From: Parcubacteria group bacterium Gr01-1014_8
GTDB taxonomy: Bacteria > Patescibacteriota > Minisyncoccia > Phycocordibacterales > UBA2100
Direction of reading: 5' to 3'
NCBI GenBank assembly: GCA_007376385.1
Contig: VMGC01000001.1
Span: forward strand, 256,001 to 320,000
Length of the DNA: 64,000 nucleotides
Shown here: piece after piece, positions 32,165-64,000 of the stretch
Layout of the letters: the number at the start of each line of letters is the position of its first letter
How positions within the stretch are numbered: the stretch's first letter is position 1
Made by a program: the position numbers and the translations under genes
The notes under the pieces: model-generated
Database searches by the model: none
Told to the model about the DNA's origin: nothing
Seen by the model: only the letters and a program-made list of their open reading frames with translations

Positions 32165-32168
32165 TATG

Positions 32169-32310
32169 CCCCGTAACGAAATGTGCCTTAGGCTTGGGCA
32201 ACGTATGAAAGCAAATCACCAAAAAGAACAAATCAACAAAGTCGGACTTTACCCGACCACGCCGCGGCAGCCGACAGGCGTCTGCCGCAAAGGCACATTT
32301 ACTAACGGGG
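32169..32310. repeat. Imperfect 21-nt inverted repeat (ccccgtaacgaaatgtgcctt … aaggcacatttactaacgggg) spanning the whole rmlC-fdtA intergenic region, with a nested GC-rich hairpin (gcggcag…ctgccgc); right arm ends 2 nt before the fdtA-like start codon
   Basis: Read directly from the sequence; 17/21 arm complementarity. Confidence 0.6.
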
Positions 32311-32311
32311 T

Positions 32312-32743: not shown

Positions 32744-32749
32744 GATTTT

Positions 32750-33016: not shown

Positions 33017-33025
33017 TGTGCGGGT

Positions 33026-51221: not shown

Positions 51222-51303
51222 TAGCGTGCGTTGTTTTTTCGGTGTCGACTCCCAACTTGTTTTCGTTGACCCGCCGGCGAAGAGGCGTTACAGTGGGGCG
51301 CTC

Positions 51304-52287
51304 ATGTCTGCAAGCTATCTCCGCGGCAAGACAATTCTCATAACTGGCGGGACCGGTACGTTCGGGCGTGCAATGGTACAGCACCTGCTTGCGATGCCCA
51401 AGGTAAAGCGTGTCATTGTGTTCAGCCGGGACGAGTATAAGCAGAGTGTCATGGAGAGTGAATTTCATGACCCTCGTCTCCATTTTTTTATAGGTGATGT
51501 ACGCGACCGTAACCGGCTCGAGCGTGCGTTTAATCATGTAGATGTTGTTATACATGCGGCCGCTCTCAAACAGGTTCCTGCTCTCGAATACAATCCATCG
51601 GAGGCGATTGAGACCAATATAATCGGGACTCGCAATGTGATAGATGCCGCGCATGAGCGTAACGTAGAGCGAGTTTTGATCATTTCGTCTGACAAAGCGG
51701 TCCAGCCGATAAACCTCTACGGCGCCACAAAATTGTGCGCCGAACGTCTGGCGGTTGCCGCAAATTCCTATCGCGGGAAGCATGGCAAGACGCGCATCAG
51801 TGTTGTTCGATACGGCAATGTTATCGGAAGCCGCGGTTCTCTGGTTGAGATCATCGGAAAGCAGCGTCAAAGCGGTACATTGATGCTGACCGACGAGGGG
51901 ATGACTCGTTTCTGGCTGCATATCGATGAGATCATGAAGCTCGTAACGAACATTATCGGTTTGATGCAGGGTGGCGAGATATTCATTCCAAAGATGTCCA
52001 GTCTTCGTATAGAAGATGTCATGCGTGAGCTTGCACCTGAGTGCATCATAAAGATAGTCGGTATGCGGCCCGGTGAAAAAATGCATGAGACGTTGATGAC
52101 GGAGCATGAGGCGCCACGCGCGAAAGATCTCGGCAATATGTATGTCATTGTGCCGGAATTCCACCCGTGGACCGCAAAAAAAATGTATGCAAACAAAAAG
52201 TCGTTTCCAAAAGATCTGGTATATGTCAGCAATCATCCGAAATATCTTCTTTCACGTTCCCACGTAAAGAAAGTGCTAAAGGTATGA
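51304..52287 (+). CDS. UDP-N-acetylglucosamine 4,6-dehydratase (PseB/CapD/FlaA1-like)
   Basis: Start trimmed to MSASYLRGKTILITGGTGTFGRAMV; YGATKLCAERL catalytic motif. Confidence 0.8.
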   Translation: MSASYLRGKTILITGGTGTFGRAMVQHLLAMPKVKRVIVFSRDEYKQSVMESEFHDPRLHFFIGDVRDRNRLERAFNHVDVVIHAAALKQVPALEYNPSEAIETNIIGTRNVIDAAHERNVERVLIISSDKAVQPINLYGATKLCAERLAVAANSYRGKHGKTRISVVRYGNVIGSRGSLVEIIGKQRQSGTLMLTDEGMTRFWLHIDEIMKLVTNIIGLMQGGEIFIPKMSSLRIEDVMRELAPECIIKIVGMRPGEKMHETLMTEHEAPRAKDLGNMYVIVPEFHPWTAKKMYANKKSFPKDLVYVSNHPKYLLSRSHVKKVLKV

Positions 52288-53423
52288 AATTGCCGTACTC
52301 GCGGCAAACAATCGGCGAGGATGATATCCGTGAGGTCATACGGACGCTAAAATCTCCTTTTATCACACAGGGGCCAAAGATAGCGGAATTCGAGAAGGCA
52401 TTAGCGCGTTTTTGTCGTGCAAAGTATGCTGTTGTTTTTTCGAGCGGTACTGCAGCGCTTCATAGTGCGTACGCGGCGGCCGGTATTGGGGAAGGAGACG
52501 AGGTTATCATGCCGGCGCTTACCTTTGCCGCGACGGCAAATGCCGCGCTGTATCTCGGAGCCACGCCTGTGTTCGTAGATATTGATAAGTCCACGGCGAA
52601 TATGGATATGCGGGATGCTAAAAAAAAGATAACAAAGCACACGAAAGCTATCGTACCCGTCGATTACGCGGGGCTGCCAGCCGACCTTACAGTATGTCGC
52701 GCGCTTGCAAAAAAGCATAAACTCATTCTTATTGAGGACGGAGCACAGAGCCTCGGAGCCATATACAAAGGGAAGCCGGTTGGCACACAGGCTGACATGA
52801 CCATGTTCAGTTTCCATCCCGTGAAGACCATCACGACGGGAGAAGGTGGCGCTGTCGTAACGAACAGCAAAAAATTCTACGATTACTTGTTAATGTATCG
52901 CACGCACGGCATGACGAAGGATCCTAGGAAGTTAACAGATACAACGAAGGCCGCATGGCATCAAGAAATGCACATGCTCGGGAATAATTATCGGATGACC
53001 GATATTCAGGCGGCACTCGGAGTGAGTCAGATGAAAAAAATACGAACATTTCTTGCGAAACGACATGCGGCCGCCCGCCGGTACTTTTCTCTGCTTAAAC
53101 ATATTGAGGGACTCACGCTGCCTCCGCGCTCTTCGCTCGCGTCGTCCGCATGGCACCTTTTTGTGGTGCGCGTCGATAAAACTGTGCGTGACATGGTATT
53201 CGAAACACTTCGGGCAAAGGGGATAGGTGTACAGGTCCACTACCTGCCCGTCTATACGCATCCGTATTACAAGTCTCTGGGATATCGTGGAACGCAATGC
53301 CCGACGACGGAAGAATTCTCAGCTTCGGCGCTGTCTATTCCGCTTTTTCCGAATATTACATATCGTGAGCAGTCATATGTCGCGACTGAACTCGAGAAGG
53401 CGCTCAGGAAAGCTCGGTTTTAA
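52284..53423 (+). CDS. DegT-family aminotransferase, PseC-like (UDP-4-amino-4,6-dideoxy-N-acetyl-sugar transaminase)
   Basis: Start trimmed to MKLPYSRQTIGEDDI (ATGA overlap with PseB-like stop); FSFHPVKTITTGEGG with the PLP Lys. Confidence 0.85.
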   Translation: MKLPYSRQTIGEDDIREVIRTLKSPFITQGPKIAEFEKALARFCRAKYAVVFSSGTAALHSAYAAAGIGEGDEVIMPALTFAATANAALYLGATPVFVDIDKSTANMDMRDAKKKITKHTKAIVPVDYAGLPADLTVCRALAKKHKLILIEDGAQSLGAIYKGKPVGTQADMTMFSFHPVKTITTGEGGAVVTNSKKFYDYLLMYRTHGMTKDPRKLTDTTKAAWHQEMHMLGNNYRMTDIQAALGVSQMKKIRTFLAKRHAAARRYFSLLKHIEGLTLPPRSSLASSAWHLFVVRVDKTVRDMVFETLRAKGIGVQVHYLPVYTHPYYKSLGYRGTQCPTTEEFSASALSIPLFPNITYREQSYVATELEKALRKARF

Positions 53424-53479
53424 TTACTCATGGGAGCGGGCTATAGTGGGGTGATAATGTGTGGAAGGGACACAATCGT

Positions 53480-54391
53480 ATGACTAAATCACGCCTCGTT
53501 CTCGGCACGACGCAGCTTGGCATGCGTTACGGCTTAAACAACAGCATAGGTCAGCCGTCGAAGGAGCAGGCCTTCGAAATACTCGATGCCGCTCTGGAGG
53601 GAGGTATCGACACGTTTGATATTGCCTATGCATACGGCACTGCCGAAGATGTTATGGGGGAATGGATCGAGAGCAGGAATGTGAGGGATCGTATTTTCGT
53701 CATCTCAAAAATGAAGCCGCATGTTTTGAATGATTATCCCGACGGTACAAAGGCGGTAGACATTGTCCTTGCGGAGATTGAAAAGTCTCTTAAGCGGTTG
53801 CGGCTCAAAAAACTTGACGGATATCTTCTGCACACCCCGTCGTATGTGTATCTTGCGCACGTCATTGCGGGTCTGCATAAAGCGAAGGAGCAGGGACTCG
53901 TCGGCAATATCGGCGTATCCGTCTACGACGAACACGAGGCCCTGCAGGGCGCAGAACTCGCGCTCGACTATATCCAGATTCCGTCTAACGTGCTCGATCA
54001 GCGCATGGAAAAGACAGTTTTTTGGGAACTCGTGCGGAAAAATAATGTGACGGTATTCGCGCGTAGCCCGTTTCTTCAGGGACTTCTATTGATGGAACCC
54101 GAACACATACCGCCGCACCTTGCATATGCCCGTCCGCATGTCGAAAAACTCCGTAGCATTGCGGGAGAGAATAACCTTTCGCCGGCTCAAGCAGCGTTGT
54201 TGTTCTCGTATATTCGGTCGAAAGCCAAGCACATAGTCTTTGGTGCTGAGAGTGTCACACAGCTTGCGGAAAATATCGCGACGACGAAACACGCCAAGGA
54301 GAGCGCATGGATGGAAGAAATTGACAAAAGTTTCAGCAACATCGAACGTGCGGTAGTGAACCCGAGTCTATGGAGCACCATCAGACAATAG
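53480..54391 (+). CDS. Aldo/keto reductase family oxidoreductase
   Basis: MTKSRLVLGTTQLGMRYG…FDIAYAYG AKR N-terminal pattern; alternative start 53459. Confidence 0.75.
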   Translation: MTKSRLVLGTTQLGMRYGLNNSIGQPSKEQAFEILDAALEGGIDTFDIAYAYGTAEDVMGEWIESRNVRDRIFVISKMKPHVLNDYPDGTKAVDIVLAEIEKSLKRLRLKKLDGYLLHTPSYVYLAHVIAGLHKAKEQGLVGNIGVSVYDEHEALQGAELALDYIQIPSNVLDQRMEKTVFWELVRKNNVTVFARSPFLQGLLLMEPEHIPPHLAYARPHVEKLRSIAGENNLSPAQAALLFSYIRSKAKHIVFGAESVTQLAENIATTKHAKESAWMEEIDKSFSNIERAVVNPSLWSTIRQ

Positions 54392-54396
54392 GTGAG

Positions 54397-54849
54397 ATGC
54401 GATATCGGCGTGCCACAATGGGCGATAGCGCACAGCTTTTCATATGGCGCAACGACCCTGTAACCCGGGAAAATTCGCGGAACGGGAAGCTGCTCGAATT
54501 TACAGAACATACTCAATGGCTGGAAACGGCATTGCAGAATTCGGATCGTCAGATATACATCGCGGAATTTGAAAACGAGCAGATTGGTGTTGTTCGCACT
54601 GATCGGATTGGCGACGTATTGGAACTATCGTGGACAGTAGTACCCGAGTGTCGCGGAAAGGGGTTGGGAAAAAAGATGGTCGTCGGCTTCGTGATGGAAG
54701 TTCTCGGCAGTCCGTCGAAATTACGTGCCTCAATACGCAAAGGAAACATCGCGTCGGAGAAAATTGCGCTAGCGCTCGGCCTGCGCTCTGTTCGGGAAGA
54801 ATCTGGCGCTGATGGACCGCCGATGGTCGTCTGGGAGACCCGAATATGA
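54397..54849 (+). CDS. GNAT N-acetyltransferase, PseH-like
   Basis: …AQLFIWRNDPVTR…GKGLGKKMV; start ambiguous (54370 or 54397). Confidence 0.6.
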   Translation: MRYRRATMGDSAQLFIWRNDPVTRENSRNGKLLEFTEHTQWLETALQNSDRQIYIAEFENEQIGVVRTDRIGDVLELSWTVVPECRGKGLGKKMVVGFVMEVLGSPSKLRASIRKGNIASEKIALALGLRSVREESGADGPPMVVWETRI

Positions 54850-55565
54850 TCGTGAGTGTTTACACCGCAATTTCTTCTTGGAATTCAGGTAGAATCATGT
54901 GGCCGAAGATGGTACAAATGACCAATCTGTCAGTAGGGTATATGCTAAAAAAGACTCTTCGTTCGTCGTTTCCATCGATCTACCATGCGCTTTGGCGTAT
55001 CAAAGAATTTATGAGGACAGGTCATTTCACTAAGCGATGGGAGCACTACTATGAAGCAAATACAGGAAAAAGTCCGTGGATCACGGATGCGATACCTGAA
55101 CTCTCGAACATACAGTTGCCGGCTCATGTTGATACCATTCTCGACGTTGGTTGTGCATCGGGCCGTAGCTTCATACCGTTTGACCGGAAGCTTAAGTTGT
55201 GGGGCATCGATATCGTTCCGTATGGGCGCATAAAATGGGTTCGGCCATTCTCAAACCTGACCTATGAGCAGATTACTGTCGAAAAATTAACCGAGAGGTT
55301 TGAGCGCGAGGAAATCGATCTCTCGCATACATTTGTCTTTGAATGCGGAACTCTGATGTACATTGGGGCGGACTATCAGAACCGCTTCTTTAATGCCTGC
55401 CAGAAGCGGGGCTGCCGAAATTTCATGTTTCTTGATTATCCGCCAGGTACGGTAGGGTATGAGGATGAACATCTGAAGATATCGGAGGATCTTTTCAAAA
55501 AATCCGATAGTTCGATGAATGAAAAGTTGAAAGTCTACACCCTGATGGAATCTTCTCGCGACTGA
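54846..55565 (+). CDS. Putative class I SAM-dependent methyltransferase
   Basis: ILDVGCASGRSF motif I; 239 aa; ATGA overlap with the upstream gene. Confidence 0.5.
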   Translation: MIVSVYTAISSWNSGRIMWPKMVQMTNLSVGYMLKKTLRSSFPSIYHALWRIKEFMRTGHFTKRWEHYYEANTGKSPWITDAIPELSNIQLPAHVDTILDVGCASGRSFIPFDRKLKLWGIDIVPYGRIKWVRPFSNLTYEQITVEKLTERFEREEIDLSHTFVFECGTLMYIGADYQNRFFNACQKRGCRNFMFLDYPPGTVGYEDEHLKISEDLFKKSDSSMNEKLKVYTLMESSRD

Positions 55566-55591
55566 AAGGAAGCCGTGATAGCATCGCCATA

Positions 55592-56641
55592 ATGTTCAAA
55601 ATAGGGCAAAGGGACATAGGCAGGGGAGCGCCGGTGTTTATTGTTGCGGAAGTGTCGGGCAATCATAATGGCGACATCAAGCGTGCACTCGATATCATCG
55701 ACGCGGCGGCAGATGCGGGCGCAGACGCCGTGAAGCTGCAGACATACACGCCGGATACGATGACCATCGACTCCGACCTCCCGTATTTCAAGGTTCATTC
55801 GAAGAACAGCAAATGGGACGGGAAGACGCTTTACGAACTGTATGCATGGGCGCAAACGCCGTGGGAATGGCATGAGAAACTTTTTGCACGCGCAAAAAGA
55901 CGAGGACTCATATGCTTTTCAACGCCTTTCGATGAAACGGCTGTCGATTTTCTGGAAAAACTTAGCCAGCCCGTCTACAAAGTCGCTTCGTTCGAAGTGG
56001 TTGATATTCCTCTTCTCGAGCGGATCGGAAAGACCAAGAAGCCTGTCATCATGTCACGAGGCATGGCCACAACTTCTGAACTTTCTCTTGCATTGAAAAC
56101 ATTAAAAAAAGCGGGTGCTCCAAGCGTTGCAGTGCTCCAATGTGTGAGTGAATATCCCGCCAAGCCAGAAGACATGCATCTTTCGAATATTCCGGATATC
56201 GAAAAAAGATTTAAAGTAGTCGCTGGCCTTTCCGACCACACCCTTTCCAATGATACCGTTGTCGCGGCCGTTGCTCTCGGTGCATGCATTATCGAGAAGC
56301 ATCTTACTCTGCGGCGTGCCGATGGGGGACCTGACGCATCATTCTCTCTTGAGCCGCACGAATTCAAAGAACTCGTTGCCTCTGTGCGCGAAGTTGAGCG
56401 GGCAATAGGAAAGCCATCCTTCGAGCGCTCAAAAGGAGAGGTTGCGAATCTTGCGTTCCGCCGCTCGTTGTTTGCTGTTAAAGATATCGCGAAAGGAGAA
56501 CGATTCACCAGTCAAAATGTCCGCTCTATTCGGCCGGGGCATGGTCTTGCGCCGAAAGAGCTAACGCGCGTTCTCAAAAAGCGAGCTGCAAAAAACATCA
56601 AACGTGGAGAACCCTTGTCACTTCGGCTCTTGAGATATTGA
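55592..56641 (+). CDS. Pseudaminic/N-acetylneuraminic acid synthase family (PseI/NeuB-like) with SAF domain
   Basis: VFIVAEVSGNHNGDIKRALDIIDAAADAGADAVKLQTY…; 349 aa. Confidence 0.85.
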   Translation: MFKIGQRDIGRGAPVFIVAEVSGNHNGDIKRALDIIDAAADAGADAVKLQTYTPDTMTIDSDLPYFKVHSKNSKWDGKTLYELYAWAQTPWEWHEKLFARAKRRGLICFSTPFDETAVDFLEKLSQPVYKVASFEVVDIPLLERIGKTKKPVIMSRGMATTSELSLALKTLKKAGAPSVAVLQCVSEYPAKPEDMHLSNIPDIEKRFKVVAGLSDHTLSNDTVVAAVALGACIIEKHLTLRRADGGPDASFSLEPHEFKELVASVREVERAIGKPSFERSKGEVANLAFRRSLFAVKDIAKGERFTSQNVRSIRPGHGLAPKELTRVLKKRAAKNIKRGEPLSLRLLRY

Positions 56642-57963
56642 GACAACAGCATATGAGTCTTGATAATGTATCAATGCGTCTCCGCTCTCCCGAGGAAATC
56701 GAGGCGTTAGAAACCAACATTCTCACCTATGAGAACCCAGATGCGGATCCGAAATCGAAACGTGTTCTAGTGTCAGCGGATAACCCCGGGGCGTTCAATG
56801 CGATGCAACATATTGTTCGCGCGCTTATGCACGATTCTCGTTGCAGTGGGGTAGTTGCTCTTATGTCCGGCAAAGCAATGGAGAACTTCGACAAAGAATG
56901 TCCGGGATTTACTCATGTGCGCGATGAAGAAACGAGACCCGATGGTTCAAAGCGACTGAAGGGCATCTTTGAAGAGTTAGGCGATCTTTCAGAAAAACAC
57001 CCATTCGATGTGGCGCTTGTGTCCATTTCTGCGAAAGACGGTCCAGAAACATCGCTGCTCTTCGCAGGCAAAGGAGTGTTCGGTAAAAAGGGTTTTCTTG
57101 GGTTCGGAAGAATGAAAACGTATATGTACGTTGATGCGTGGGGAGGTCCAGGAGGCGCATTCAAACTACCGACCGATCAAATGGAAAAGATGGATGGTAT
57201 CTTTTGTAACGATAATCTCGCAAAGGGCATTATCCATCGTGCATATCCTAACTTTCCAGAGCAACGTATACAGGCACTCGGTTCCCCTGTTGCAGAGCAT
57301 ATCGACCCCTCTCGTGTGAAAGAGAATCGGGAAAAGGCTCGACAAGAGCTTAAGATATCGAGCGACAGTTTTGTCGTATTTTATATTGGTGATCGAGCGC
57401 GCGACTATGAAGGCCACTCGATATATAACCCTAATTCGAACATCGAGACATTTGAAAAAACGACTGATGTCCTGAAAACATGGGCGCAGAAGGAGAAGAA
57501 CCGCAATCGGAAAATTGCCTTCATTACGCGGCCGCACCCTCGCGATGAAGAAAAGGCTCGTTTCGAGAGAGTGGTGAGAGCCACCGCGAATGATATGCCT
57601 CCAAATATTCAGATTGTGTTTGCAACCGATACTGACGGAGAGCGCGATCGTCGCTTGTTTGGGCTTTGTGCAGATGCAGCAAATGTGGTGGCTGGTATTA
57701 TTCCCACAGATGTGCAGATGGCGCCTTTGAGAGGCAGTAACGGCATATACCTCGCCTTTCCAGAGCGGGGGCTGGGGAAAGACATTCAGTTGCAGATTTG
57801 GGGGCCGCTTGTAGGTTCTGTGGAAACGGAGAGGATAAAAATTGTATCCTCGGCAGGTGGGCTGGAGCGTGCTTTCGACGCATTTCTACAGGAGACTTCA
57901 TATGGATCCTCGGCATCGTCGGCAGGGGCAACGGCAGGAATAGTTGAAACAATACTTCGGTAA
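56638..57963 (+). CDS. Hypothetical protein (441 aa), possibly GT-B-like; contains an RPHPRD motif
   Basis: No confident family; positioned between PseI-like and the HP-motif transferase paralog. Confidence 0.45.
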   Translation: MRQQHMSLDNVSMRLRSPEEIEALETNILTYENPDADPKSKRVLVSADNPGAFNAMQHIVRALMHDSRCSGVVALMSGKAMENFDKECPGFTHVRDEETRPDGSKRLKGIFEELGDLSEKHPFDVALVSISAKDGPETSLLFAGKGVFGKKGFLGFGRMKTYMYVDAWGGPGGAFKLPTDQMEKMDGIFCNDNLAKGIIHRAYPNFPEQRIQALGSPVAEHIDPSRVKENREKARQELKISSDSFVVFYIGDRARDYEGHSIYNPNSNIETFEKTTDVLKTWAQKEKNRNRKIAFITRPHPRDEEKARFERVVRATANDMPPNIQIVFATDTDGERDRRLFGLCADAANVVAGIIPTDVQMAPLRGSNGIYLAFPERGLGKDIQLQIWGPLVGSVETERIKIVSSAGGLERAFDAFLQETSYGSSASSAGATAGIVETILR

Positions 57964-57970
57964 TGTTTGT

Positions 57971-59467
57971 ATGAAAGGCCTATTTATATTGCAGCGACGA
58001 TTTGCGTACATCGGCCATGAGATGGCGAAATTCCTTAAAGCGGACGGTGTTGCCGATGAATTTTGCGGGTACGTGCAAGTACGCGACGGCTATAGATTTC
58101 TGAAGGGCCAGAGCGATATCCGTTATACCGGATTAATTCTTGATGAGGACATACAGAAACAGTACAGAGATGAAAAACTTGATATCGCATATCTTGCGAA
58201 ACTTGAAGAAGAGTACGGCACGCTTTGGAAATATATCAATGTGGATCGCGTCATCAGTCACGGACAACTTGTGCGTGAGTACCCTTTTGACCGCTCGCCA
58301 TATACGCACGAAGAAATGCTCCGCATGGTGCAAGTGTATGCAAAGAACATCGAAGCGTTTCTTGATAGAGAGAAGCCGGATTTTGTCTTTGGCTACATAT
58401 TCGGCAGTCTCGGCATGCTTCTTCTCCATGACATGGCACAGAAACGCGGTATTCCAATTCTTACGACAATAGTTCCCTCGACGCGCGATCTTGTCTCGGT
58501 AACCGGTTCGTACGAGCGTATCACCGGAGTCGAAGAAAGGTTCCGCGACAATCTAAAGAAACCGTTAGAGCAGATAGAATCATACAGCGAAGCGCGGGAT
58601 TTTCTTGAAGAATTCCGCAGAAAACCCTTTGTCTATACGAAAGTCGTTGTTTCTCGGGTGAAGGGAGGACGCTTTGCGCAATTCTCGTTCTTAAGACCTC
58701 GGCAGGTGTTGTGGACTCTGTACTTCAATTTTTTCCACATTTTTATCGAATGGATGCGCGATAGCGAACGCCGCACAGACTACTCGACTGTGAACCCGTT
58801 TTTTCATGTGTATGACCATGTAAAGAGAAAATTACGCAACCTCGTCGGACTCAATGATCTCTATGATGTATTCGATACGTCGAAGTCGTACGCGTTTTTT
58901 CCCTTACAGTACGAGCCTGAAACGACGCTGCTTCTCCTCGCTCCGAACGAGACAGATCAAGTGCAGACGATTACTCGCACCGCCTGTTCGCTTCCTGCAG
59001 GCATGCTTCTGTATGTGAAAGAGCACCCTGGCATGACCCCGTACCGTCCGCGCGCGTTCTATCGCAGACTAAAAAAAATACCGAACGTCCGTCTCATGAA
59101 TCCCGCGCTTTCGAGTTTCGAGATCATCAAACACTGCAGATTGGTGACTGTTATCAGCGGTACGCCGGGCTGGGAGGCCGCCCTTCTCAAAAAACCAGTC
59201 ATCACGTTCGGCCACGTTTTTTACAATGCCTTGTCATTCATTGGAAAATACCGTGTGCCTGAAGAATTGCCGGAACTTGTCCGGAAGCAACTTAGCGTGC
59301 AAACAGATGATAAGGAATTGCTTGCATTCCTTGCTGCTCTTTTTGCGGATTGTGCGTCGCTTGACTTGATGTATTTGTGGGAGATAGAAGAAAACGAAGA
59401 AAAGCGCCGCGTAGGTTTCAAGAAGTTTGCGGATGTGCTCGCTGCGAAGATACGTTTGATAGAATGA
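57971..59467 (+). CDS. Capsule_synth (KpsS/LpsZ)-like GT-B protein with HP motif; putative CMP-ulosonic-acid glycosyltransferase; paralog of 42185..43606
   Basis: ORF track begins at a TTG (57944) overlapping the upstream gene; trimmed to ATG 57971. YVKEHPGMTPY … VTVISGTPGWEAALLKKPVITFGHVFY. Confidence 0.55.
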   Translation: MKGLFILQRRFAYIGHEMAKFLKADGVADEFCGYVQVRDGYRFLKGQSDIRYTGLILDEDIQKQYRDEKLDIAYLAKLEEEYGTLWKYINVDRVISHGQLVREYPFDRSPYTHEEMLRMVQVYAKNIEAFLDREKPDFVFGYIFGSLGMLLLHDMAQKRGIPILTTIVPSTRDLVSVTGSYERITGVEERFRDNLKKPLEQIESYSEARDFLEEFRRKPFVYTKVVVSRVKGGRFAQFSFLRPRQVLWTLYFNFFHIFIEWMRDSERRTDYSTVNPFFHVYDHVKRKLRNLVGLNDLYDVFDTSKSYAFFPLQYEPETTLLLLAPNETDQVQTITRTACSLPAGMLLYVKEHPGMTPYRPRAFYRRLKKIPNVRLMNPALSSFEIIKHCRLVTVISGTPGWEAALLKKPVITFGHVFYNALSFIGKYRVPEELPELVRKQLSVQTDDKELLAFLAALFADCASLDLMYLWEIEENEEKRRVGFKKFADVLAAKIRLIE

Positions 59468-59471
59468 CCGT

Positions 59472-60464
59472 ATGAAGATTTTGATTACAGGAGGAGCCGG
59501 CTTTATCGGGTATCATCTGGCGAAAAGACTTTCATCAGAGGGACACAATATAACGATTGCGGACAATTTCTTCCGCGGAAAGCGGGATGCTGAACTGGGG
59601 GCGCTATTAAAAAATCCGAACGTTCATCTCGTAGAGGCTGATCTATCGCAAAAAGACGCATGGAACGCCCTTGGGAAGGGATACGATCAGGTGTACCATC
59701 TCGTCGGTATCAACGGCACAAACCTGTTCTATGAAATTCCTCATGAAGTACTCCGTATTGGTGTTGCAAGTACGATGCATGCACTGGACTGGTTTCGGGG
59801 AGTGAACGGCGTGCCGGATGCAAAAATCCTATATACCTCAAGCAATGAGGCGTATGCGTCCGCACTTGAGGCGTATGGCTCGCTTCCGCTTCCCACACCG
59901 GAGAATGTGCCGCTTGTTATCGCGGACACGTACAACCCACGTTGGTCGTATGGAGGACAGAAGCTGATAGGGGAGCTGTTCTTTATTCATTACGCCAAGG
60001 CATATAACTTCCGGATGGTGATAGTGCGGCCGCACAATTTTTACGGACCTCGGTCAGGTTATGGACATGTTATTCCGGGGACGTTGGAAAAGATCAGAGT
60101 GAAGACGGATCCATTCCCGCTTCCCGGCGCAGACGAGACGCGTTCTTTTTGTTACATCGACGATGCGGTGGAAGCGATGCAGGTAGTTATGGGATCGCGC
60201 GCGACGGATGGAGGAACATACCACATCGGCAATCCGAACGAATTAAGCATGGAAGCGCTGGTTCAGGAAATATTCAATATTGCAAAGTGGCACCCGAAGA
60301 CACTTGAGAAAAAATTGTCTCCTGCGGGGAGCGTGAAGCGACGGCTCCCTGATGTGTCAAAGTTAAAGCGCGATACCGGTTGGGAGGCGAAAACTACTCT
60401 TGAGGAAGGTCTTAGGAAGACTGTGGAATGGTACCTTCTGAATCCGAAAGGAGATTCTCGCTAG
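59472..60464 (+). CDS. NAD-dependent nucleotide-sugar epimerase/dehydratase
   Basis: MKILITGGAGFIGYHLAKRL…, YGGQKLIGE catalytic YxxxK. Confidence 0.8.
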   Translation: MKILITGGAGFIGYHLAKRLSSEGHNITIADNFFRGKRDAELGALLKNPNVHLVEADLSQKDAWNALGKGYDQVYHLVGINGTNLFYEIPHEVLRIGVASTMHALDWFRGVNGVPDAKILYTSSNEAYASALEAYGSLPLPTPENVPLVIADTYNPRWSYGGQKLIGELFFIHYAKAYNFRMVIVRPHNFYGPRSGYGHVIPGTLEKIRVKTDPFPLPGADETRSFCYIDDAVEAMQVVMGSRATDGGTYHIGNPNELSMEALVQEIFNIAKWHPKTLEKKLSPAGSVKRRLPDVSKLKRDTGWEAKTTLEEGLRKTVEWYLLNPKGDSR

Positions 60465-61744
60465 AGATACGCATCAAAAAAAGATGCAAAGACCTTGATA
60501 ACATGGACTACGTGCGCTTTTGTTAATGCGGGGTGACAGCCGATGAAAACGCTCTGGTCCCGAATTGTGCGGGCGACGGGCAGTTCTCCCACTATACGCT
60601 GCGGTTCGTCTCGGAATGCCGGCTGGTCGGGGAGACATCCGCCAAAAAAAGGCCTTGTTTCTATACCCTTTGATTCGAGGCATTGGACGAATTCAAGACG
60701 AGAGAACGGGGCAGTTTTTTTTACTACGAACGGATACCCGTAATAGCTGTGGAATGCTCCCTTCGCTACTTTTGGGAGCTCGAGAAATTGTTCATATTTC
60801 TGGAATTTGTTGTTGTAGATCTGTATTGTTGCTATACGTTTTGCGTTCAACGCATCAAGTTTTTTTATTTGTTCGATACCGAGGGAAGCGGCTATGTCGG
60901 TCATACGGACGTTGTAGCCGATACGGGTGAAGATATAGCGCGCGTCAAATCCTGAAAGGACCTTGTCTTTATACGTGAACCGATTCGCATTCGCGATACT
61001 AGGAGGGAGTCTGCCAAATTCACGCAGCGATTGCAGCAGGTCGCGCATGGATTCATCGTTGGTAAATATCATGCCGCCTTCGCCTGTGGTTATGTTATGC
61101 GCCACAAAAAAACTGAGTGTCGCGATATCACCGAACGAGCCGACTTTTTTTCCGCCGATAGCCGCGCCATGCGCCTCGCAGCAATCTTCAAGGACGAGCA
61201 GGTCGTGTTTCTTTGCGATGCTCATGATGGCACCCATGTCCGCGGGATTACCGAAGGTATGCACCGGCATGATGACGCGCGTCTTCGGCGAGATCGCCTT
61301 TTCGACCCCTTTCGGGTCGATGTTCCACGAGGTCGGATCGATATCGACATAGACGGGGATGAGTCCGACTTGGATGATGGGGGAAGCGACAGTGGCGAAT
61401 GTCGTCGCAGGAAGAATGACCTCAGAACCCTTGGGGACAATTCCCGATGCGACAAGCGCCGAGAGAGCGAGCAGGTTAGCTGAAGAACCGGAATTTACGG
61501 CAACAGCGTACTTCACGCCAACATATTTCGCGCATGCATCCTCGAATTGCCTGACTTTTGGGCCCTGTGAGATCCTGAGGTCAATGAGCGACTGAAGCGC
61601 ATTTGTTATCTCCTTATGGTCAAAAACGGGCCAGCTGATGGTGACAATGCCGGGGGCGGGAACATTGTCATGCTTTTTCTCCTGCATGATCGTTTTAACC
61701 AGCGCGTTCAGTTTTGTGCGGGAGTTATTTTTTGTCTTTTTCAT
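60461..61744 (-). CDS. RfbH/DdhC-ColD-like PLP/PMP-dependent NDP-4-keto-6-deoxyhexose 3-dehydratase-like enzyme (DegT superfamily, His in place of the PLP lysine, no Fe-S cysteine motif)
   Basis: Collinear with Salmonella RfbH (NSGSSANLLALSAL; IPVYVDIDPTSWNID; VLEDCCEAHG; GSFGDIATLSFFVAHNITTGEGG; IGYNVRMTDIAAS; RIVGELPVARTIRDQSVFIGCHPALT). The position of the Schiff-base Lys reads AHN (His) as in E1/ColD. Region after REFGR lacks the E1 cysteine cluster. 427 aa. Confidence 0.7.
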   Translation of the reverse strand: MKKTKNNSRTKLNALVKTIMQEKKHDNVPAPGIVTISWPVFDHKEITNALQSLIDLRISQGPKVRQFEDACAKYVGVKYAVAVNSGSSANLLALSALVASGIVPKGSEVILPATTFATVASPIIQVGLIPVYVDIDPTSWNIDPKGVEKAISPKTRVIMPVHTFGNPADMGAIMSIAKKHDLLVLEDCCEAHGAAIGGKKVGSFGDIATLSFFVAHNITTGEGGMIFTNDESMRDLLQSLREFGRLPPSIANANRFTYKDKVLSGFDARYIFTRIGYNVRMTDIAASLGIEQIKKLDALNAKRIATIQIYNNKFQKYEQFLELPKVAKGAFHSYYGYPFVVKKTAPFSRLEFVQCLESKGIETRPFFGGCLPDQPAFRDEPQRIVGELPVARTIRDQSVFIGCHPALTKAHVVHVIKVFASFFDAYL

Positions 61745-62663
61745 TGTGCGTAAGAAAGTGAGTAATCGTCTTTTCCAGGCCGTCTTTCAGCGATGTGCGC
61801 GGCTTCCATGATAGAAACTTATTTGCTTTGGCAGTCGAGAGTCTGAATGGGGAAACCTCAATGCGTGCCGGGCGGGTGTCGGCATGCGAGGATACTATCG
61901 TAATTGTTTTTCCCAGTCGATGTTCCAATAGATTTTTTACGGTCTGGGCTATCTGTTTGAGAGCAATGGATCGGCCGCCTATGTTATATACCGCGTTCTG
62001 AACCTTTTGCGGTGCCCTCATGGCACAGAGGAATGCATCGGCAACATCTTCAACGTAAATGAAATTCTTTCGTATGGTGAGCGCGCCGACTGTAATTGTA
62101 TCGCTGGATATCATTTTTTGAATGACATCTGAAATGAACATCGAACGTGGCTGACCCGGCCCATAGACGCTGTCGAGTCGAAGAATAATGTACGGAATAT
62201 CGTACAGGCGTTGATAGGTTTCAAGCAGTGTCTCGCACATAATCTTTGCCGCTGTATAGGGTTCTATAGGGACAGGCCGTTTCTTTTCTGTGACTGTTCC
62301 GCTGTATGTTCCGTAGAGTCGATCTGTAGATGCAAAGATAATAAGCGGCTTCATTTCTTTTTTGCGGAATGTCTCAAGCACGTTCATCAGTATCGAGGTG
62401 TTGTGTTCTATTCTCTGTCGGGGTGCTTCCAAAGAAGCATTGATATCGATACTGCCGGCCAGATGGATGAACACATCGCAATTCTCTATCGCTTTCTCGA
62501 CCGATGCAGCATCGAGCAGGTTCGTCCGTATGTTTTTTACAGAAGGGATGGTCGCAGTCTCGTGTAAGAGCGCGGTGACGTTGAGTCCTTCGGCAGAGAG
62601 CTTTCTGCACACGTGAGAGCCGATAAAGCCGGCGGCGCCTGATACGACAACGTGAGTACTCAT
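61725..62663 (-). CDS. NAD-dependent nucleotide-sugar epimerase/dehydratase
   Basis: MSTHVVVSGAAGFIGSHVCRKL…; YTAAKIMCE catalytic motif. Confidence 0.8.
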   Translation of the reverse strand: MSTHVVVSGAAGFIGSHVCRKLSAEGLNVTALLHETATIPSVKNIRTNLLDAASVEKAIENCDVFIHLAGSIDINASLEAPRQRIEHNTSILMNVLETFRKKEMKPLIIFASTDRLYGTYSGTVTEKKRPVPIEPYTAAKIMCETLLETYQRLYDIPYIILRLDSVYGPGQPRSMFISDVIQKMISSDTITVGALTIRKNFIYVEDVADAFLCAMRAPQKVQNAVYNIGGRSIALKQIAQTVKNLLEHRLGKTITIVSSHADTRPARIEVSPFRLSTAKANKFLSWKPRTSLKDGLEKTITHFLTHNEKDKK

Positions 62664-63778
62664 ATTTCCGCTGCCGTCTGCAGTATTTTTCGTAATCTTA
62701 CCGCGAGGGTGCGATGGTCAAATTCAGATATTCGCTTGGCCGCGGCATGACTAAGTGTTTCGCGCATGTTCGGTGATTCTACGAGTTTTTCTATCGCTTT
62801 AGCAAGCGACACGGCGTCGTTGTCTTTGAACGTAAGAGTCGCCTCGCCTGCGAGCCATTCGAGTCCTCCTCCTTCGGGGACGACGACGGGACGGTGCACG
62901 GCAAGTGCTTCAAGGAGGAGTACCGATGAAAGTTCTTTGTGGAAGCGCGGATAGATGAATATGTCGCAATTGGCGAGTGTTGCATGCATTTCATGTTTTG
63001 ACACCCACCCTGGAAAATGAACAGTGTTCCCGATGCCGCGCGCCCTCGCTTGTTCTTGAAGTGCTTCACGTTCTGGGCCGTCGCCACTTAAGGTAACCGC
63101 TATCATTTCACGCTGCTGCTTCGGAAGAAGCGCAAGCGCATCTACGAGAAGGTTGAATCCCTTATCTTGGATCATGCGTCCCGATGCGAAGATACGCACG
63201 ACATTATCCTTTTTTTCGTGCGGCAATTTCTGCAATAGAGTGTTGTCGACAAAATCAGGCATCACGGAATGGTTCGACGAGGGGATGCGGATGCCGAATG
63301 CGCGGTAGCGTGCGGCGAGTTGTGGAGTGGTAAAGATAAAGTGGTCTATATGAGGTGCGAGGAACTTGTTTAAAAATCGTTCTATGTATTGACGTATGCG
63401 TGCGCGGAATGTGCTTGCGTTCCATGCGAGAGATTCGCGATTGTAAAATGCGACGACCGGCTTGCCGCCGAGTATGCGGTAGAGTGCGCCTCCGTAGGCA
63501 AATTGTCCTTCAATATGAAATACGTCCGTACTCTGCTGATGTTTACGGAGGATTTGAAGTATCTTCCAATGGATCTTGTGAAGCGTTTTTGGGGAAGAGA
63601 TGGATTCCTCGATGACTGTGTATGGCAGGTTCTCCAGTTTATTTAGCTCCGAAAAGACCGTAACTACTTGTACGTCCTCGCCAAGAGCTTGCATATCGCG
63701 GACTTTTAGGTCGAGGTCCGGTACAGAGCCGCCCGCGGATTCAAGATTGATTTTTGATGTAACGAACGTGACGCGCAT
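62660..63778 (-). CDS. Glycosyltransferase family 4
   Basis: GT-B group 1; …PRFHKELSSVLLLEALAVHRPVVVPEGGGLEWLAG…. Confidence 0.75.
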   Translation of the reverse strand: MRVTFVTSKINLESAGGSVPDLDLKVRDMQALGEDVQVVTVFSELNKLENLPYTVIEESISSPKTLHKIHWKILQILRKHQQSTDVFHIEGQFAYGGALYRILGGKPVVAFYNRESLAWNASTFRARIRQYIERFLNKFLAPHIDHFIFTTPQLAARYRAFGIRIPSSNHSVMPDFVDNTLLQKLPHEKKDNVVRIFASGRMIQDKGFNLLVDALALLPKQQREMIAVTLSGDGPEREALQEQARARGIGNTVHFPGWVSKHEMHATLANCDIFIYPRFHKELSSVLLLEALAVHRPVVVPEGGGLEWLAGEATLTFKDNDAVSLAKAIEKLVESPNMRETLSHAAAKRISEFDHRTLAVRLRKILQTAAEI

Positions 63779-63789: not shown

Positions 63790-63975
63790 CTATCCGCGTT
63801 TCGTAAATCGTTTAGCAATGAGTGCCGGGTTCAAAACATATTTGAGGAGCGAATGACGCAGCTCTCTCAGCGCATGCCAACCGGAAATATGAGGGTCAGG
63901 CCAGTTTGAGTACCACTCTGGCATAAGAGGATATTTTTCTTCGAGCGCACGATGCTGATCATTCGATACATACAT
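63790..63975 (-). CDS. Short ORF at the window edge, hypothetical (may be the 3' part of a longer gene starting beyond 64000)
   Basis: 61 aa ORF; no homology recognised. Confidence 0.2.
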   Translation of the reverse strand: MYVSNDQHRALEEKYPLMPEWYSNWPDPHISGWHALRELRHSLLKYVLNPALIAKRFTKRG

Positions 63976-64000
63976 AGCTTTTAAAAGAAGGGGTTTTACA

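What the first reader, a model, noticed from the sequence alone, without database searches (positions are those of the whole stretch)
60461..61744. RfbH/ColD-like enzyme with His replacing the PLP lysine: predicted sugar 3-dehydratase for a 3,6-dideoxyhexose
The protein aligns collinearly with CDP-4-keto-6-deoxyglucose 3-dehydrase (E1/RfbH/DdhC). At the position where DegT aminotransferases carry the Schiff-base Lys, the sequence reads SFFVAHNITTGEGG. The two other DegT proteins in this window read SFHPVK and SFYPTK. E1 and ColD are the known cases where His replaces Lys and the enzyme dehydrates C3 instead of transaminating. Unlike E1, the Cys-rich [2Fe-2S] segment is absent, as in GDP-colitose ColD. 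Together with the adjacent epimerase and GT4 (same strand), this predicts a colitose/abequose-like 3,6-dideoxy sugar branch in addition to the other pathways.
Basis: partly seen in the sequence, partly recalled or inferred. Interest (0 to 1): 0.55.

Follow-up and report, generated by a model that had tools for sequence, protein, structure and literature searches.

The report
Iron-sulfur-free sugar 3-dehydratase cassette
This gene from an uncultured Patescibacteria (CPR) bacterium very likely encodes a vitamin-B6-dependent enzyme that removes the 3-hydroxyl of a nucleotide-activated keto-sugar; it belongs to a large uncharacterised branch of that enzyme family that lacks the usual iron-sulfur cluster and sits in a conserved gene cassette unlike the known colitose or abequose pathways.

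Summary
ORF 60461-61744 (-) is a 427-aa DegT-fold protein. Its His216 aligns with E1 His220, ColD His188 and the Schiff-base Lys of aminotransferases. Three of the four E1 [2Fe-2S] cysteines are missing. It is closest to E1 (fold TM 0.92) but falls below the RfbH equivalog cutoff. In a tree it lies in a third, Cys-free lineage of His-type dehydratases, nested in neither the E1 nor the ColD grouping. That lineage is common in Patescibacteria and also found in DPANN archaea, SAR11 and SAR86.

The context differs from both known pathways. Relatives recurrently carry a UXS-like SDR (window 59472-60464), a GalE-like SDR (61725-62663, fused to the enzyme in some relatives), a nucleotide-sugar-dehydrogenase-like gene (a fragment lies at the window edge, 63790-64000) and glycosyltransferases. 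GDP-mannose dehydratase is depleted, and no E3-like reductase was found.

Best reading: an Fe-S-independent, ColD-style NDP-4-keto-sugar 3-dehydratase. I rate it a new variant of a known kind, of moderate interest.

The parts
60461..61744 (-). T: His-type, DegT-fold, PMP-dependent NDP-4-keto-sugar 3-dehydratase candidate (427 aa). It is the last gene of the minus-strand unit.
   Evidence: Pfam PF01041 2e-105. Best PDB sequence match is E1 3bcx, 3e-83. AF2 model pLDDT 96.7. Foldseek: E1 TM 0.92/0.93, ColD 0.83. 100% identical to P0001 from Parcubacteria group bacterium Gr01-1014_8.
61073..61114 (-). Motif SFFVAHNITTGEGG (residues 211-224). His216 (61097-61099) occupies the Schiff-base Lys position.
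   Evidence: Alignments. His is present in 163 of 164 clade members. No Lys within 15 residues either side.
60959..61027 (-). Loop, residues 240-262 (LREFGRLPPSIANANRFTYKDKV), which replaces E1's Cys-rich [2Fe-2S] loop. It contains no Cys.
   Evidence: 159 of 164 clade members have no Cys in this loop.
60635..60637 (-). Cys370 codon. This is a clade-specific replacement of an Asn that is nearly universal in other His-type dehydratases (GGCLPDQP against E1 AGNLTRQP).
   Evidence: Asn in E1-type 35/35 and ColD-like 31/34; Cys in 28 of 39 clade leaves, and in 83% of 164 clade sequences.
61725..62663 (-). Partner extended SDR (312 aa, motif STDRLYG, YxxxK present). Its stop overlaps the T start by 20 nt. 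Inferred to be the 4-ketoreductase (with or without epimerase activity) acting on T's product.
   Evidence: Pfam Epimerase 2e-49. Best PDB match 6zl6, which is UDP-GlcA 4-epimerase-like. 44% identical over its full length to the C-terminal domain of the T-SDR fusion P0026. Orthologue next to T in L002-L010, L026, L081 and L083.
62660..63778 (-). GT4 glycosyltransferase (372 aa). Its stop overlaps the partner SDR start by 4 nt.
   Evidence: Pfam Glycos_transf_1 and Glyco_transf_4. Orthologues at 33-45% identity flank T in L011-13, L017, L026 and L081-83.
63790..64000 (-). 3' end (69 codons plus stop) of a gene that runs off the window edge: a short UDP-glucose/GDP-mannose-dehydrogenase-like protein. 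It is the first visible gene of the T operon.
   Evidence: 54% identity over 67 aa, E = 5e-20, to the C-terminus (258-324 of 326) of L026 f42. L026 f42 matches Pfam UDPG_MGDP_dh central domain at 47.6 bits.
59472..60464 (+). SDR59k: a UXS-like extended SDR (330 aa), convergent with T with overlapping stop codons. Inferred to supply the NDP-4-keto sugar; the reaction type (decarboxylase or 4,6-dehydratase) is unresolved.
   Evidence: Orthologues at 33-72% identity lie within 5 kb of T relatives in 20 of 36 loci, against 4 of 43 controls, and in L002/3/6 and L081-83. PDB best match is human UXS1. It carries the UXS invariants Glu120 and Arg277. NCBIfam 4,6-dehydratase models nevertheless score higher than the UXS models.
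57944..59467 (+). KpsS/KpsC-like 'Capsule_synth' protein (507 aa) directly upstream of SDR59k. It is a recurrent neighbour and its membership of the cassette is uncertain.
   Evidence: Pfam PF05159. Orthologues at 39-44% identity near T in L012, L013, L017, L026, L082 and L083.

Best explanation
T is a PMP-dependent NDP-4-keto-sugar C-3 dehydratase from a third, iron-sulfur-free lineage of the His-type DegT enzymes. It has an E1-like scaffold and I infer ColD-like chemistry.

Proposed mechanism. PMP forms a Schiff base with the C4 keto group. His216 acts as acid/base and abstracts the C4' proton, and the 3-OH is expelled. There is no [2Fe-2S] cluster and no E3-type reductase. So the ene-amine adduct is most likely hydrolysed, as in ColD, to the 3-deoxy-4-keto sugar plus ammonia. 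PLP would then be returned to PMP by transamination from an amino acid, probably glutamate.

Place in the cassette. T works in a conserved set of genes: a short nucleotide-sugar-dehydrogenase-like gene (window edge), the UXS-like SDR 59472-60464 that makes the 4-keto sugar, T, the partner SDR 61725-62663 that reduces the 4-keto group (fused to T in some relatives), and the GT4 62660-63778 that transfers the product.

My favoured route is Arn-like: uronic acid, then UDP-4-keto-pentose, then a 3-deoxy-4-keto-pentose, then a 3-deoxypentose.

Sub-probabilities: T is a 3-dehydratase, about 0.8. PMP recycling is ColD-type, about 0.55. The substrate comes from SDR59k, about 0.6. The product is a pentose, about 0.4, against about 0.35-0.4 for a 6-deoxyhexose.

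Shown: fold, His substitution, loss of the Fe-S motif, clade placement, gene linkage and fusions. Inferred: all of the chemistry. The overall confidence given (0.55) is for the Fe-S-independent 3-dehydratase acting within this cassette, not for the pentose branch specifically.
For: - His216 sits at the catalytic position, and there is no nearby Lys.
- The PLP-binding Asp187 is invariant.
- Fold: E1 TM 0.92/0.93 and E = 1e-46, against ColD and perosamine synthase at 0.80-0.84.
- The His-type supergroup has bootstrap 95-97. The query lies in an all-Cys-free clade of 39-40 leaves (bootstrap 47-62).
- The Fe-S ligands are absent across the clade. No Fer2/FNR-type reductase was found among the annotated window ORFs.
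- Review PMC8987622: E1 and SpnQ need the cluster plus a reductase, whereas ColD, which lacks it, hydrolyses the intermediate and recycles PMP with glutamate.
- Fusions: T-SDR in P0026, P0042 and P0043; T-GT2 in P0121.
- Neighbourhood, clade (36 loci) against other His-type loci (43): SDR59k 20 v 4 (P = 1.5e-5), dehydrogenase 17 v 7 (P = 4e-3), GT2 15 v 0 (P = 1e-6), GMD 5 v 23 (P = 3e-4).
- Tight co-directional operons: dehydrogenase, SDR59k, partner SDR, T in L009; short dehydrogenase, SDR59k, T in L014, L015 and L082.
- A short dehydrogenase fragment lies in the window's own operon.
- SDR59k's best solved homologue is UXS1. It carries the UXS-group invariants Glu120 and Arg277, where RmlB has Tyr and GMD has Leu at the Arg277 column.
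Against: - Nothing here tests activity.
- SDR59k reaches no curated family cutoff. The NCBIfam 4,6-dehydratase models (LegB, RmlB) outscore the UXS and ArnA models. In the window's copy, UXS Ser119 is Asn.
- The dehydrogenase in the window and in most CPR relatives is a short form that lacks the C-terminal UDP-binding domain. It may not make a uronic acid.
- Dehydrogenases could instead serve another sugar of the same glycan. AsnB-type amidotransferases are frequent neighbours.
- A subclade at 56-59% identity (L011-13) sits beside a true GMD. Another at 66-68% identity (L002-6) sits beside a GT11, the fucosyltransferase family. Both hint at GDP-6-deoxyhexose substrates.
- The window has RmlA/RmlB.
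- The tree backbone is weakly supported. The loci are phylogenetically non-independent, so the Fisher P values are optimistic.
- Four conserved Cys (188, 189, 370, 403) leave open an alternative metal site.
Confidence: 0.55

Rival explanations
1. One reading: a classical 3,6-dideoxyhexose branch. T dehydrates an NDP-4-keto-6-deoxyhexose. Candidates are dTDP-4-keto-6-deoxyglucose from the window's RmlA/RmlB, a product of SDR59k acting as a 4,6-dehydratase, or GDP-4-keto-6-deoxymannose from a GMD elsewhere in the genome. The partner SDR then reduces or epimerises the product to a colitose-, abequose- or paratose-like sugar, which the GT4 transfers.
For: All characterised family members (E1, ColD, SpnQ) act on 6-deoxyhexoses. 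RmlB is above its cutoff, at 413 against 365 bits, at 34123-35091. NCBIfam 4,6-dehydratase models give the best HMM scores for SDR59k and its orthologues. Clade members L011-13 lie next to a true GMD (507 bits against a cutoff of 415), and L002-6 lie next to a GT11. The basal solved relative 9wvy is labelled a putative NDP-4-keto-6-deoxyglucose 3-dehydratase.
Against: GMD is depleted around clade members, at 5 of 36 against 23 of 43 for ColD-like relatives. There is no GMD or CDP-glucose pathway in the 64-kb window. The window's RmlA/RmlB lie 25 kb away and directly beside their own FdtA plus Lys-type DegT branch. This reading does not explain why a dehydrogenase-like gene is almost always directly upstream of SDR59k, or in the T operon. 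SDR59k has the UXS invariants Glu120 and Arg277, not the RmlB TDE motif.
Confidence: 0.35
2. T is functionally a Lys-independent 4-aminotransferase, like the side activity SpnQ shows without a reductase. With the dehydrogenase, the UXS/ArnA-like SDR and a GT2 it would form a true Arn-type pathway to a 4-amino-4-deoxy sugar.
For: SpnQ, a His-type enzyme, transaminates when PLP and glutamate are supplied and no reductase is present (PMC8987622). The module of dehydrogenase, ArnA-like SDR, DegT and ArnC-like GT2 mirrors Ugd/ArnA/ArnB/ArnC.
Against: ColD and E1 do not transaminate under the same conditions. His is conserved in 163 of 164 clade members, and Lys-type DegT paralogues are available in the same window. 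An amino-sugar route needs no ketoreductase, yet an SDR is fused to or translationally coupled with T.
Confidence: 0.07
3. T still uses reductive, E1-like chemistry but with a different electron or hydride source. Either an alternative metal or Fe-S site is built from the clade-conserved Cys188, Cys189, Cys370 and Cys403, or the fused or adjacent SDR delivers hydride from NAD(P)H directly to the PMP-glucoseen intermediate.
For: The four Cys are conserved at 83-100%, and 116 of 164 clade sequences have C188, C370 and C403 together (C189 is present in all 164). Cys370 replaces a near-universal Asn specifically in this clade. The E1 ligand C193 equivalent is retained. T-SDR fusions exist.
Against: The C193 equivalent is also kept in cluster-free ColD-like proteins (33 of 34). 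Cys403 occurs sporadically in other groups. The spatial proximity of the four Cys could not be tested, because model coordinates are not exposed. There is no precedent for hydride reduction of this intermediate. L082 has T without the partner SDR.
Confidence: 0.08

Closest known systems
E1 / RfbH / DdhC / AscC (CDP-6-deoxy-L-threo-D-glycero-4-hexulose 3-dehydrase, Yersinia pseudotuberculosis; PDB 3bcx)
   Same: It is the best sequence and fold match (283 bits; TM 0.92/0.93; about 34% identity) and is collinear over residues 32-424. His is at the Lys position. The PLP-binding Asp and the C193-equivalent Cys are retained.
   Different: Three of the four [2Fe-2S] ligands (C251, C253, C261) are missing and the loop is shorter. 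The score is below the RfbH equivalog cutoff. No E3 reductase and no CDP-glucose genes were found nearby. Active-site-region differences are E190 for D194, H192 for Leu, F213 for Y217 and C370 for Asn.
ColD / WbdK (GDP-4-keto-6-deoxy-D-mannose 3-dehydratase; PDB 2gms)
   Same: It has His for Lys and no Fe-S cluster. Its hydrolytic, glutamate-recycled mechanism is therefore the only characterised one compatible with T's sequence.
   Different: It is more distant (194 bits, TM about 0.83). It has a different loop (RAHGWTR) and falls in a different tree grouping. ColD-like relatives are linked to GMD (23 of 43 loci), whereas T's clade is not (5 of 36). T has an N-terminal helical extension like E1's.
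PDB 9wvy, 'putative NDP-4-keto-6-deoxyglucose-3-dehydratase' (no paper found in the held library)
   Same: It is His-type (FYAGHH) with a Cys-free FGR...RF loop. It groups with P0265 (bootstrap 100) at the base of T's clade.
   Different: The pairwise match is only 197 bits. Support for the common clade is weak (bootstrap 47). It is 399 aa and lacks Cys370 (it reads GAS). Its function is only putative.
SpnQ (TDP-4-keto-2,6-dideoxyglucose 3-dehydrase, spinosyn pathway)
   Same: It is a His-type 3-dehydratase that works without a dedicated E3 and can fall back on transamination.
   Different: SpnQ retains the [2Fe-2S] motif and needs general ferredoxin or flavodoxin reductases. T has no such motif.
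Arn pathway (Ugd, ArnA decarboxylase domain, ArnB, ArnC, ArnT) as a system-level analogue
   Same: The recurrent module around T's clade is a nucleotide-sugar dehydrogenase, a UXS/ArnA-like SDR, a DegT-fold enzyme and a polyprenyl-phosphate-type GT2, often with large polytopic membrane proteins.
   Different: The DegT enzyme is a His-type dehydratase, not the Lys-type transaminase ArnB. An extra SDR is present. In the window the transferase is a GT4 and the dehydrogenase is a short form. SDR59k has not been shown to be a decarboxylase.

Membership tests
His-type DegT NDP-4-keto-sugar 3-dehydratases (E1/ColD/SpnQ supergroup) | Fold-type I, DegT_DnrJ_EryC1 domain | tested here: met
   PF01041 2e-105. 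AF2 pLDDT 96.7. Foldseek top hits are all DegT-fold.
His-type DegT NDP-4-keto-sugar 3-dehydratases (E1/ColD/SpnQ supergroup) | His in place of the Schiff-base Lys | tested here: met
   His216 aligns with E1 H220, ColD H188 and Per K186. No Lys within 15 residues either side.
His-type DegT NDP-4-keto-sugar 3-dehydratases (E1/ColD/SpnQ supergroup) | Phylogenetic placement with dehydratases rather than aminotransferases | tested here: met
   NJ tree with 100 bootstraps: the all-His clade has support 95-97 against Lys-type outgroups.
His-type DegT NDP-4-keto-sugar 3-dehydratases (E1/ColD/SpnQ supergroup) | C-3 deoxygenation activity on an NDP-4-keto sugar | not testable with these tools
   Needs an enzyme assay.
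E1 / RfbH (CDP-4-keto-6-deoxyglucose 3-dehydrase) | [2Fe-2S] binding motif, four Cys near PMP (C193, C251, C253, C261 in E1; numbering from my own knowledge plus the alignment) | tested here: not met
   Only the C193 equivalent is present. The loop has no Cys.
E1 / RfbH (CDP-4-keto-6-deoxyglucose 3-dehydrase) | Score above the curated equivalog cutoff (NF011936) | tested here: not met
   381.5 bits against a cutoff of 423.
E1 / RfbH (CDP-4-keto-6-deoxyglucose 3-dehydrase) | Partner E3 (ferredoxin/FNR-type reductase) and CDP-glucose genes (RfbF, RfbG) nearby | tested here: not met
   No such domains in the annotated window ORFs. The RmlA-like gene scores 41.9 against a cutoff of 300 for the cytidylyltransferase model. 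The rest of the genome is not available.
ColD (GDP-4-keto-6-deoxymannose 3-dehydratase) | Absence of an Fe-S cluster motif | tested here: met
ColD (GDP-4-keto-6-deoxymannose 3-dehydratase) | Membership of the ColD sequence clade (RAHGW.R loop, G-N motif) | tested here: not met
   The query has a different loop and a different NJ grouping. The Asn of the G-N motif is Cys370.
ColD (GDP-4-keto-6-deoxymannose 3-dehydratase) | GDP-mannose 4,6-dehydratase (GMD) and ColC context | tested here: not met
   There is no GMD in the window (tblastn). GMD is near 5 of 36 clade loci, against 23 of 43 ColD-like loci.
ColD (GDP-4-keto-6-deoxymannose 3-dehydratase) | Glutamate-dependent PMP regeneration with release of ammonia | not testable with these tools
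   This is inferred only from the lack of a cluster or reductase.
UXS group of UDP-glucuronate decarboxylases (for neighbour 59472-60464) | Signature residues Thr118, Ser119, Glu120, Tyr147, Lys151 and Arg277 (PMC3438964) | tested here: inconclusive
   The window protein has Ser, Asn, Glu, Tyr, Lys and Arg. Most orthologues have S(S/T)SE. RmlB has Tyr and GMD has Leu at the Arg277 column. GMD, however, shares the SSE motif.
UXS group of UDP-glucuronate decarboxylases (for neighbour 59472-60464) | Score above a curated family cutoff | tested here: not met
   NF008872 scores 77.9 against a cutoff of 294. The LegB and RmlB models score higher, and all are below cutoff.
Lys-type DegT sugar aminotransferases | Schiff-base Lys in the SF.P.K motif | tested here: not met
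   His216 is at that position. Both window paralogues have Lys there.

The most novel reading that the evidence does not exclude
The cassette is an Arn-like pathway in which a His-type dehydratase replaces the transaminase ArnB. A (short) nucleotide-sugar dehydrogenase makes a uronic acid. The UXS-like SDR decarboxylates it to a UDP-4-keto-pentose. T removes the 3-OH without any Fe-S cluster. The partner SDR then reduces C4, giving a nucleotide-activated 3-deoxypentose (or its 2-acetamido analogue). To my knowledge no such sugar has been described as a nucleotide-sugar product. It would then be displayed on the cell surface of Patescibacteria, DPANN archaea, SAR11 and SAR86 through GT4, GT2 or polyprenyl-phosphate steps.
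Probability: 0.35. Interest if true: 0.7.

Novelty: new variant of a known kind. Interest (0 to 1): 0.45.

Why it matters
Only two solutions to C-3 deoxygenation of nucleotide sugars are characterised. E1 and SpnQ use an Fe-S cluster plus a reductase. ColD uses a hydrolytic route with glutamate recycling and acts on a GDP-mannose-derived sugar. This gene represents a large, phylogenetically broad and uncharacterised third lineage, with hundreds of sequences in CPR bacteria, DPANN and other archaea, SAR11, SAR86, Nitrospira and Omnitrophota. It combines the E1 scaffold with loss of the cluster, a clade-specific active-site Asn-to-Cys change, and a conserved partner set unlike either known pathway. 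If the partner SDR59k is a decarboxylase, the product would be a new class of deoxysugar on the surfaces of ultra-small, host-dependent bacteria, whose envelope glycans are almost unknown. Even on the conservative reading, it corrects the database name ("glutamine--scyllo-inositol transaminase" or "DegT aminotransferase") and supplies a defined five-gene set for in vitro reconstitution.

Tried and rejected
1. A Lys shifted by a few residues. Rejected: there is no Lys within 15 residues either side of His216.
2. Placement among true aminotransferases. Rejected by the tree.
3. Membership of RfbH proper. Rejected: the score is below the equivalog cutoff and the Fe-S motif is absent.
4. Membership of the ColD clade. 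Rejected on loop, tree and context.
5. Recovering the contig beyond position 64000. The look-up of encoding contigs found no record for T, the SDR or the GT4. The source MAG was not among the 80 genome loci. Only the 69-aa edge fragment could be identified.
6. Primary E1 and SpnQ papers (PMC2782820, PMC2515278, PMC2515268). They are not held. The review PMC8987622 was used instead, and residue numbers for the E1 Cys ligands rest on my own knowledge plus the alignment.
7. A structure model of SDR59k from locus orthologues.
8. Resolving SDR59k by curated HMMs. This was inconclusive: all scores are below cutoff, and the dehydratase models outscore the UXS models, whereas PDB comparisons favour UXS1.
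9. Whether P0121's fused GT2 belongs to the neighbour GT2 family f4. It does not.
10. Distances between the four conserved Cys. Not possible: model coordinates are not exposed.
11. Literature search for a UDP-4-keto-pentose 3-dehydratase, a Cys-free E1-like enzyme, or entries 8VR2 and 9WVY. Nothing relevant was found in the held library.
12. Pseudoenzyme. Rejected as unlikely: 50-77% identity is maintained across many lineages, with an invariant His, Asp and GEGG motif.

Full report
**1. The observation**

The ORF lies at exactly 60461-61744 on the minus strand (427 aa, ATG start). It carries SFFVAHNITTGEGG at residues 211-224.

- Pfam DegT_DnrJ_EryC1 matches at 2e-105.
- HMMER against PDB sequences puts E1 (3bcx) first at 3e-83. 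His216 lies opposite E1 His220 and opposite Lys186 of perosamine synthase. E1's Cys-rich loop falls opposite a shorter, Cys-free stretch.
- A 164-sequence MAFFT alignment places His216 in the column of E1 H220, ColD H188, Per K186 and the Lys of both window paralogues.
- No Lys occurs within 15 residues either side of His216.

**2. Source and family size**

The protein is 100% identical to a protein of "Parcubacteria group bacterium Gr01-1014_8", a CPR/Patescibacteria MAG, on a contig of 407,897 bp. There it is named "glutamine--scyllo-inositol transaminase".

Homologues at 50-77% identity are numerous and mostly from Patescibacteria. Species-representative genomes extend the clade at 46% identity or more to Methanocellales, Pacearchaeota, Woesearchaeota, SAR86, SAR11, Omnitrophota, Planctomycetia, Nitrospira and Chloroflexi MAGs.

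An exhaustive search of 1.84 billion representatives found 6,628 proteins below 1e-30. Scores fall steeply from the query's own cluster (560 bits), to three clusters at about 50% identity (409-438 bits), to 335 bits or less for everything else.

**3. Placement within the family**

Of the 150 best representatives, 145 have His at the catalytic column. Their loops fall into four classes:

- E1-type CxC...C;
- a second CxCxxC...C type;
- ColD-type RAHGW.R without Cys;
- the query's REFGR...RF type without Cys.

In a bootstrapped NJ tree the His-type proteins form a clade with support 95-97 against the Lys-type outgroups. Within it the query lies in an all-Cys-free group of 39-40 leaves (support 47-62), nested in neither the E1 grouping nor the ColD grouping. 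The backbone of the tree is weak.

The recently deposited 9wvy ("putative NDP-4-keto-6-deoxyglucose-3-dehydratase") is His-type with a similar Cys-free loop. It joins the base of this group.

The AF2 model is very confident (pLDDT 96.7). Its best structural match is E1 (TM 0.92/0.93, E = 1e-46), ahead of perosamine synthase and ColD (TM 0.80-0.84).

The NCBIfam RfbH equivalog scores 381.5 bits, below its cutoff of 423.

Across 164 clade members:

- His is kept in 163, the PLP-binding Asp in 164, and the E1 C193 equivalent in 164.
- The other three cluster ligands are absent.
- The C193 equivalent is also kept in ColD-like proteins, so it is not diagnostic.
- Clade-specific residues are Glu190, His192, Phe213 and, most strikingly, Cys370. 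Nearly all other His-type dehydratases have Asn at position 370.

**4. Local anatomy**

On the minus strand, a partial ORF (63790-64000) ends 11 nt before the GT4 (62660-63778). The GT4 stop overlaps the SDR start by 4 nt (SDR 61725-62663). The SDR stop overlaps the T start by 20 nt. T's stop codon overlaps the stop of the convergent plus-strand SDR at 59472-60464, which I call SDR59k.

The edge fragment is 54% identical (E = 5e-20) to the C-terminus of a short UDP-glucose/GDP-mannose-dehydrogenase-like protein found in the closest relative's locus.

**5. Linkage evidence from relatives**

- *Fusions.* T is fused to an SDR in P0026, P0042 and P0043. That SDR domain is 44% identical over its full length to the window's partner SDR. 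In P0121, T is fused to a GT2 domain.
- *Nearest relatives (70-77% identity).* They repeat the set of partner SDR, T, GT4 and convergent SDR59k. In L082 and L083 a short dehydrogenase fused to a methyltransferase lies directly upstream of SDR59k.
- *Clearest operon.* L009 has a tight four-gene operon: dehydrogenase, SDR59k (71%), partner SDR (50%), T (62%).
- *Counts within 5 kb, clade loci against control loci.* The controls are mostly ColD-like.

| Neighbour | 36 clade loci | 43 control loci | Fisher P |
|---|---|---|---|
| SDR59k orthologue | 20 | 4 | 1.5e-5 |
| Nucleotide-sugar dehydrogenase | 17 | 7 | 4e-3 |
| Polyprenyl-phosphate-type GT2 | 15 | 0 | 1e-6 |
| GMD | 5 | 23 | 3e-4 |

. These loci are not phylogenetically independent, so the P values are optimistic.

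- *Control.* The GMD association of the ColD-like controls shows that the method recovers the known colitose context.
- *Wider flanks.* L002, L003 and L006 also carry a short dehydrogenase followed by SDR59k, 6-8 kb from T.
- *Exception.* One subclade (L011-13) instead has a true GMD plus a small unknown protein next to T.

**6. What the neighbours are**

- *SDR59k.* Its best solved homologue is human UXS1, both as a single sequence (101 bits) and as an orthologue profile (202 bits, against 134-161 for RmlB and about 135 for ArnA). It carries the residues that PMC3438964 calls invariant in the UXS group, Glu120 and Arg277. The window's RmlB has Tyr and a true GMD has Leu at the Arg277 column. 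Against this, it reaches no curated cutoff, the NCBIfam LegB and RmlB dehydratase models outscore the UXS and ArnA models, and the window's copy has Asn at Ser119. Its reaction type is therefore unresolved.
- *Partner SDR.* It resembles GalE and UDP-GlcA 4-epimerases (6zl6) and has an unusual STDRLYG motif.
- *Dehydrogenases.* Full-length forms pass the TIGR03026 cutoff. The short forms keep the Rossmann motif and the catalytic-Cys motif GG.C.PKD but lack the UDP-binding domain.

**7. The rest of the window**

Positions 21.9-64 kb form a glycan island. It holds:

- several GT4s and a sugar C-methyltransferase;
- an FdtA, Lys-type DegT, RmlB and RmlA-like branch;
- an ABC transporter and two CMP-sugar synthetases;
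- two NeuB-type synthases, one of them fused to a flavin-dependent oxidoreductase-like domain;
- a PseB, PseC, GNAT and PseI set.

No ferredoxin/FNR-type (E3-like) reductase, GMD or CDP-glucose pathway gene was found. PdxS and PdxT (PLP synthase) sit at 280-1765.

**8. Mechanism**

Review PMC8987622 states that E1 and SpnQ need the cluster plus a reductase to reduce the PMP-glucoseen intermediate. ColD, which lacks the cluster, hydrolyses the intermediate and regenerates PMP with glutamate.

T lacks the cluster ligands, and no reductase is in view. The ColD-type route is therefore the best-supported inference (about 0.55), with His216 as the acid/base.

The fused or coupled SDR is most simply the 4-ketoreductase for the labile product.

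The 4-keto substrate most likely comes from SDR59k (about 0.6). If SDR59k is a decarboxylase fed by the dehydrogenase, the product is a 3-deoxypentose made by an Arn-like route (about 0.4).

Minor rivals are a Lys-independent transaminase, and a reductive mechanism that uses the four conserved Cys or hydride from the SDR.

**9. Verdict**

Its specific sugar prediction is unproven and competes with a more novel alternative.

The gene is a new variant of a known kind: an Fe-S-free, E1-like 3-dehydratase lineage with its own conserved partner set. Interest is moderate (0.45). It would rise to about 0.7 if the 3-deoxypentose route were shown.

Noticed in passing
Proteins P0193, P0228, P0231, P0233, P0236, P0243, P0251 (representatives): Several RfbH-like proteins of about 750-830 aa carry an insertion of roughly 400 aa with intein-like ends (...HNC). 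It sits immediately after the GR(D/E/S)C that starts the Fe-S loop, so it splits the cluster-binding motif.
   Followed up: no
window 25543-27513 (+): A single 656-aa ORF combines a GT4 glycosyltransferase with a truncated UDP-glucose/GDP-mannose-dehydrogenase-like segment. That segment has a Rossmann motif and the catalytic-Cys motif GGHCFIKD but no UDP-binding domain. Stand-alone short homologues (families f14 and f42) sit next to SDR59k in many CPR loci.
   Followed up: partly
L082:5327-6946 and L083:11497-13083: The short dehydrogenase-like domain is fused to a SAM-dependent methyltransferase domain, directly upstream of the UXS-like SDR. Its function is unknown.
   Followed up: partly
window 45626-48028 (+): An 800-aa fusion of a flavin-dependent amine-oxidase / UDP-galactopyranose-mutase-like domain with a NeuB-type nonulosonic acid synthase (TIGR03569 375 bits, just below its cutoff of 400). 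It is a second NulO synthase besides PseI at 55592-56641.
   Followed up: no
window 51226-56641 (+): A near-complete pseudaminic acid set in a CPR genome: PseB-like (51226-52287), PseC (459 bits against a cutoff of 423), an aldo-keto reductase, a GNAT, and PseI (475 bits against a cutoff of 340). My greedy ORF map first picked a spurious antisense ORF (51151-52236, -) over PseB.
   Followed up: partly
window 29797-35839: A separate dTDP-sugar branch: a sugar C-methyltransferase (29797-30972), a truncated RmlD-like gene (30993-31721), an FdtA-type 3,4-ketoisomerase (32312-32743), a Lys-type DegT (33026-34126), RmlB (34123-35091, -) and a short 255-aa RmlA-like nucleotidyltransferase that is below its cutoff (35072-35839, -).
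   Followed up: partly
window 280-1765 (+): PdxS (SOR_SNZ, 352 bits) and PdxT (SNO), which together form PLP synthase, are encoded in the same window. This is relevant to cofactor supply for the three DegT enzymes in a reduced genome.
   Followed up: yes
L019, L020, L021, L022, L028, L032, L041, L069, L078 (family f8, next to T orthologues): The partner SDR of the marine and non-CPR subclade has SSVYVYSG in place of the T-x-x motif. In most members the YxxxK tyrosine is apparently replaced (for example LGATK), which is unusual for an extended SDR. This rests on one MAFFT alignment only.
   Followed up: no
L026:13414-14454 (-) and L003:933-1889: A 346-aa protein with a weak NUDIX domain hit (32.8 bits) lies between the short dehydrogenase and SDR59k in the closest relative's locus. 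NUDIX-fold enzymes include sugar 2,3-dehydratases and GDP-mannose hydrolases.
   Followed up: no
window 17010-21764 (+): Just upstream of the glycan island lie a DUF4015 putative glycosyl hydrolase, a TrwB/TraG-like type IV coupling-protein homologue (19192-20820) and a lamin-tail-domain protein.
   Followed up: no
window 56638-57963 (+): A 441-aa ORF between PseI and the KpsS/C-like gene has no Pfam or NCBIfam match.
   Followed up: no
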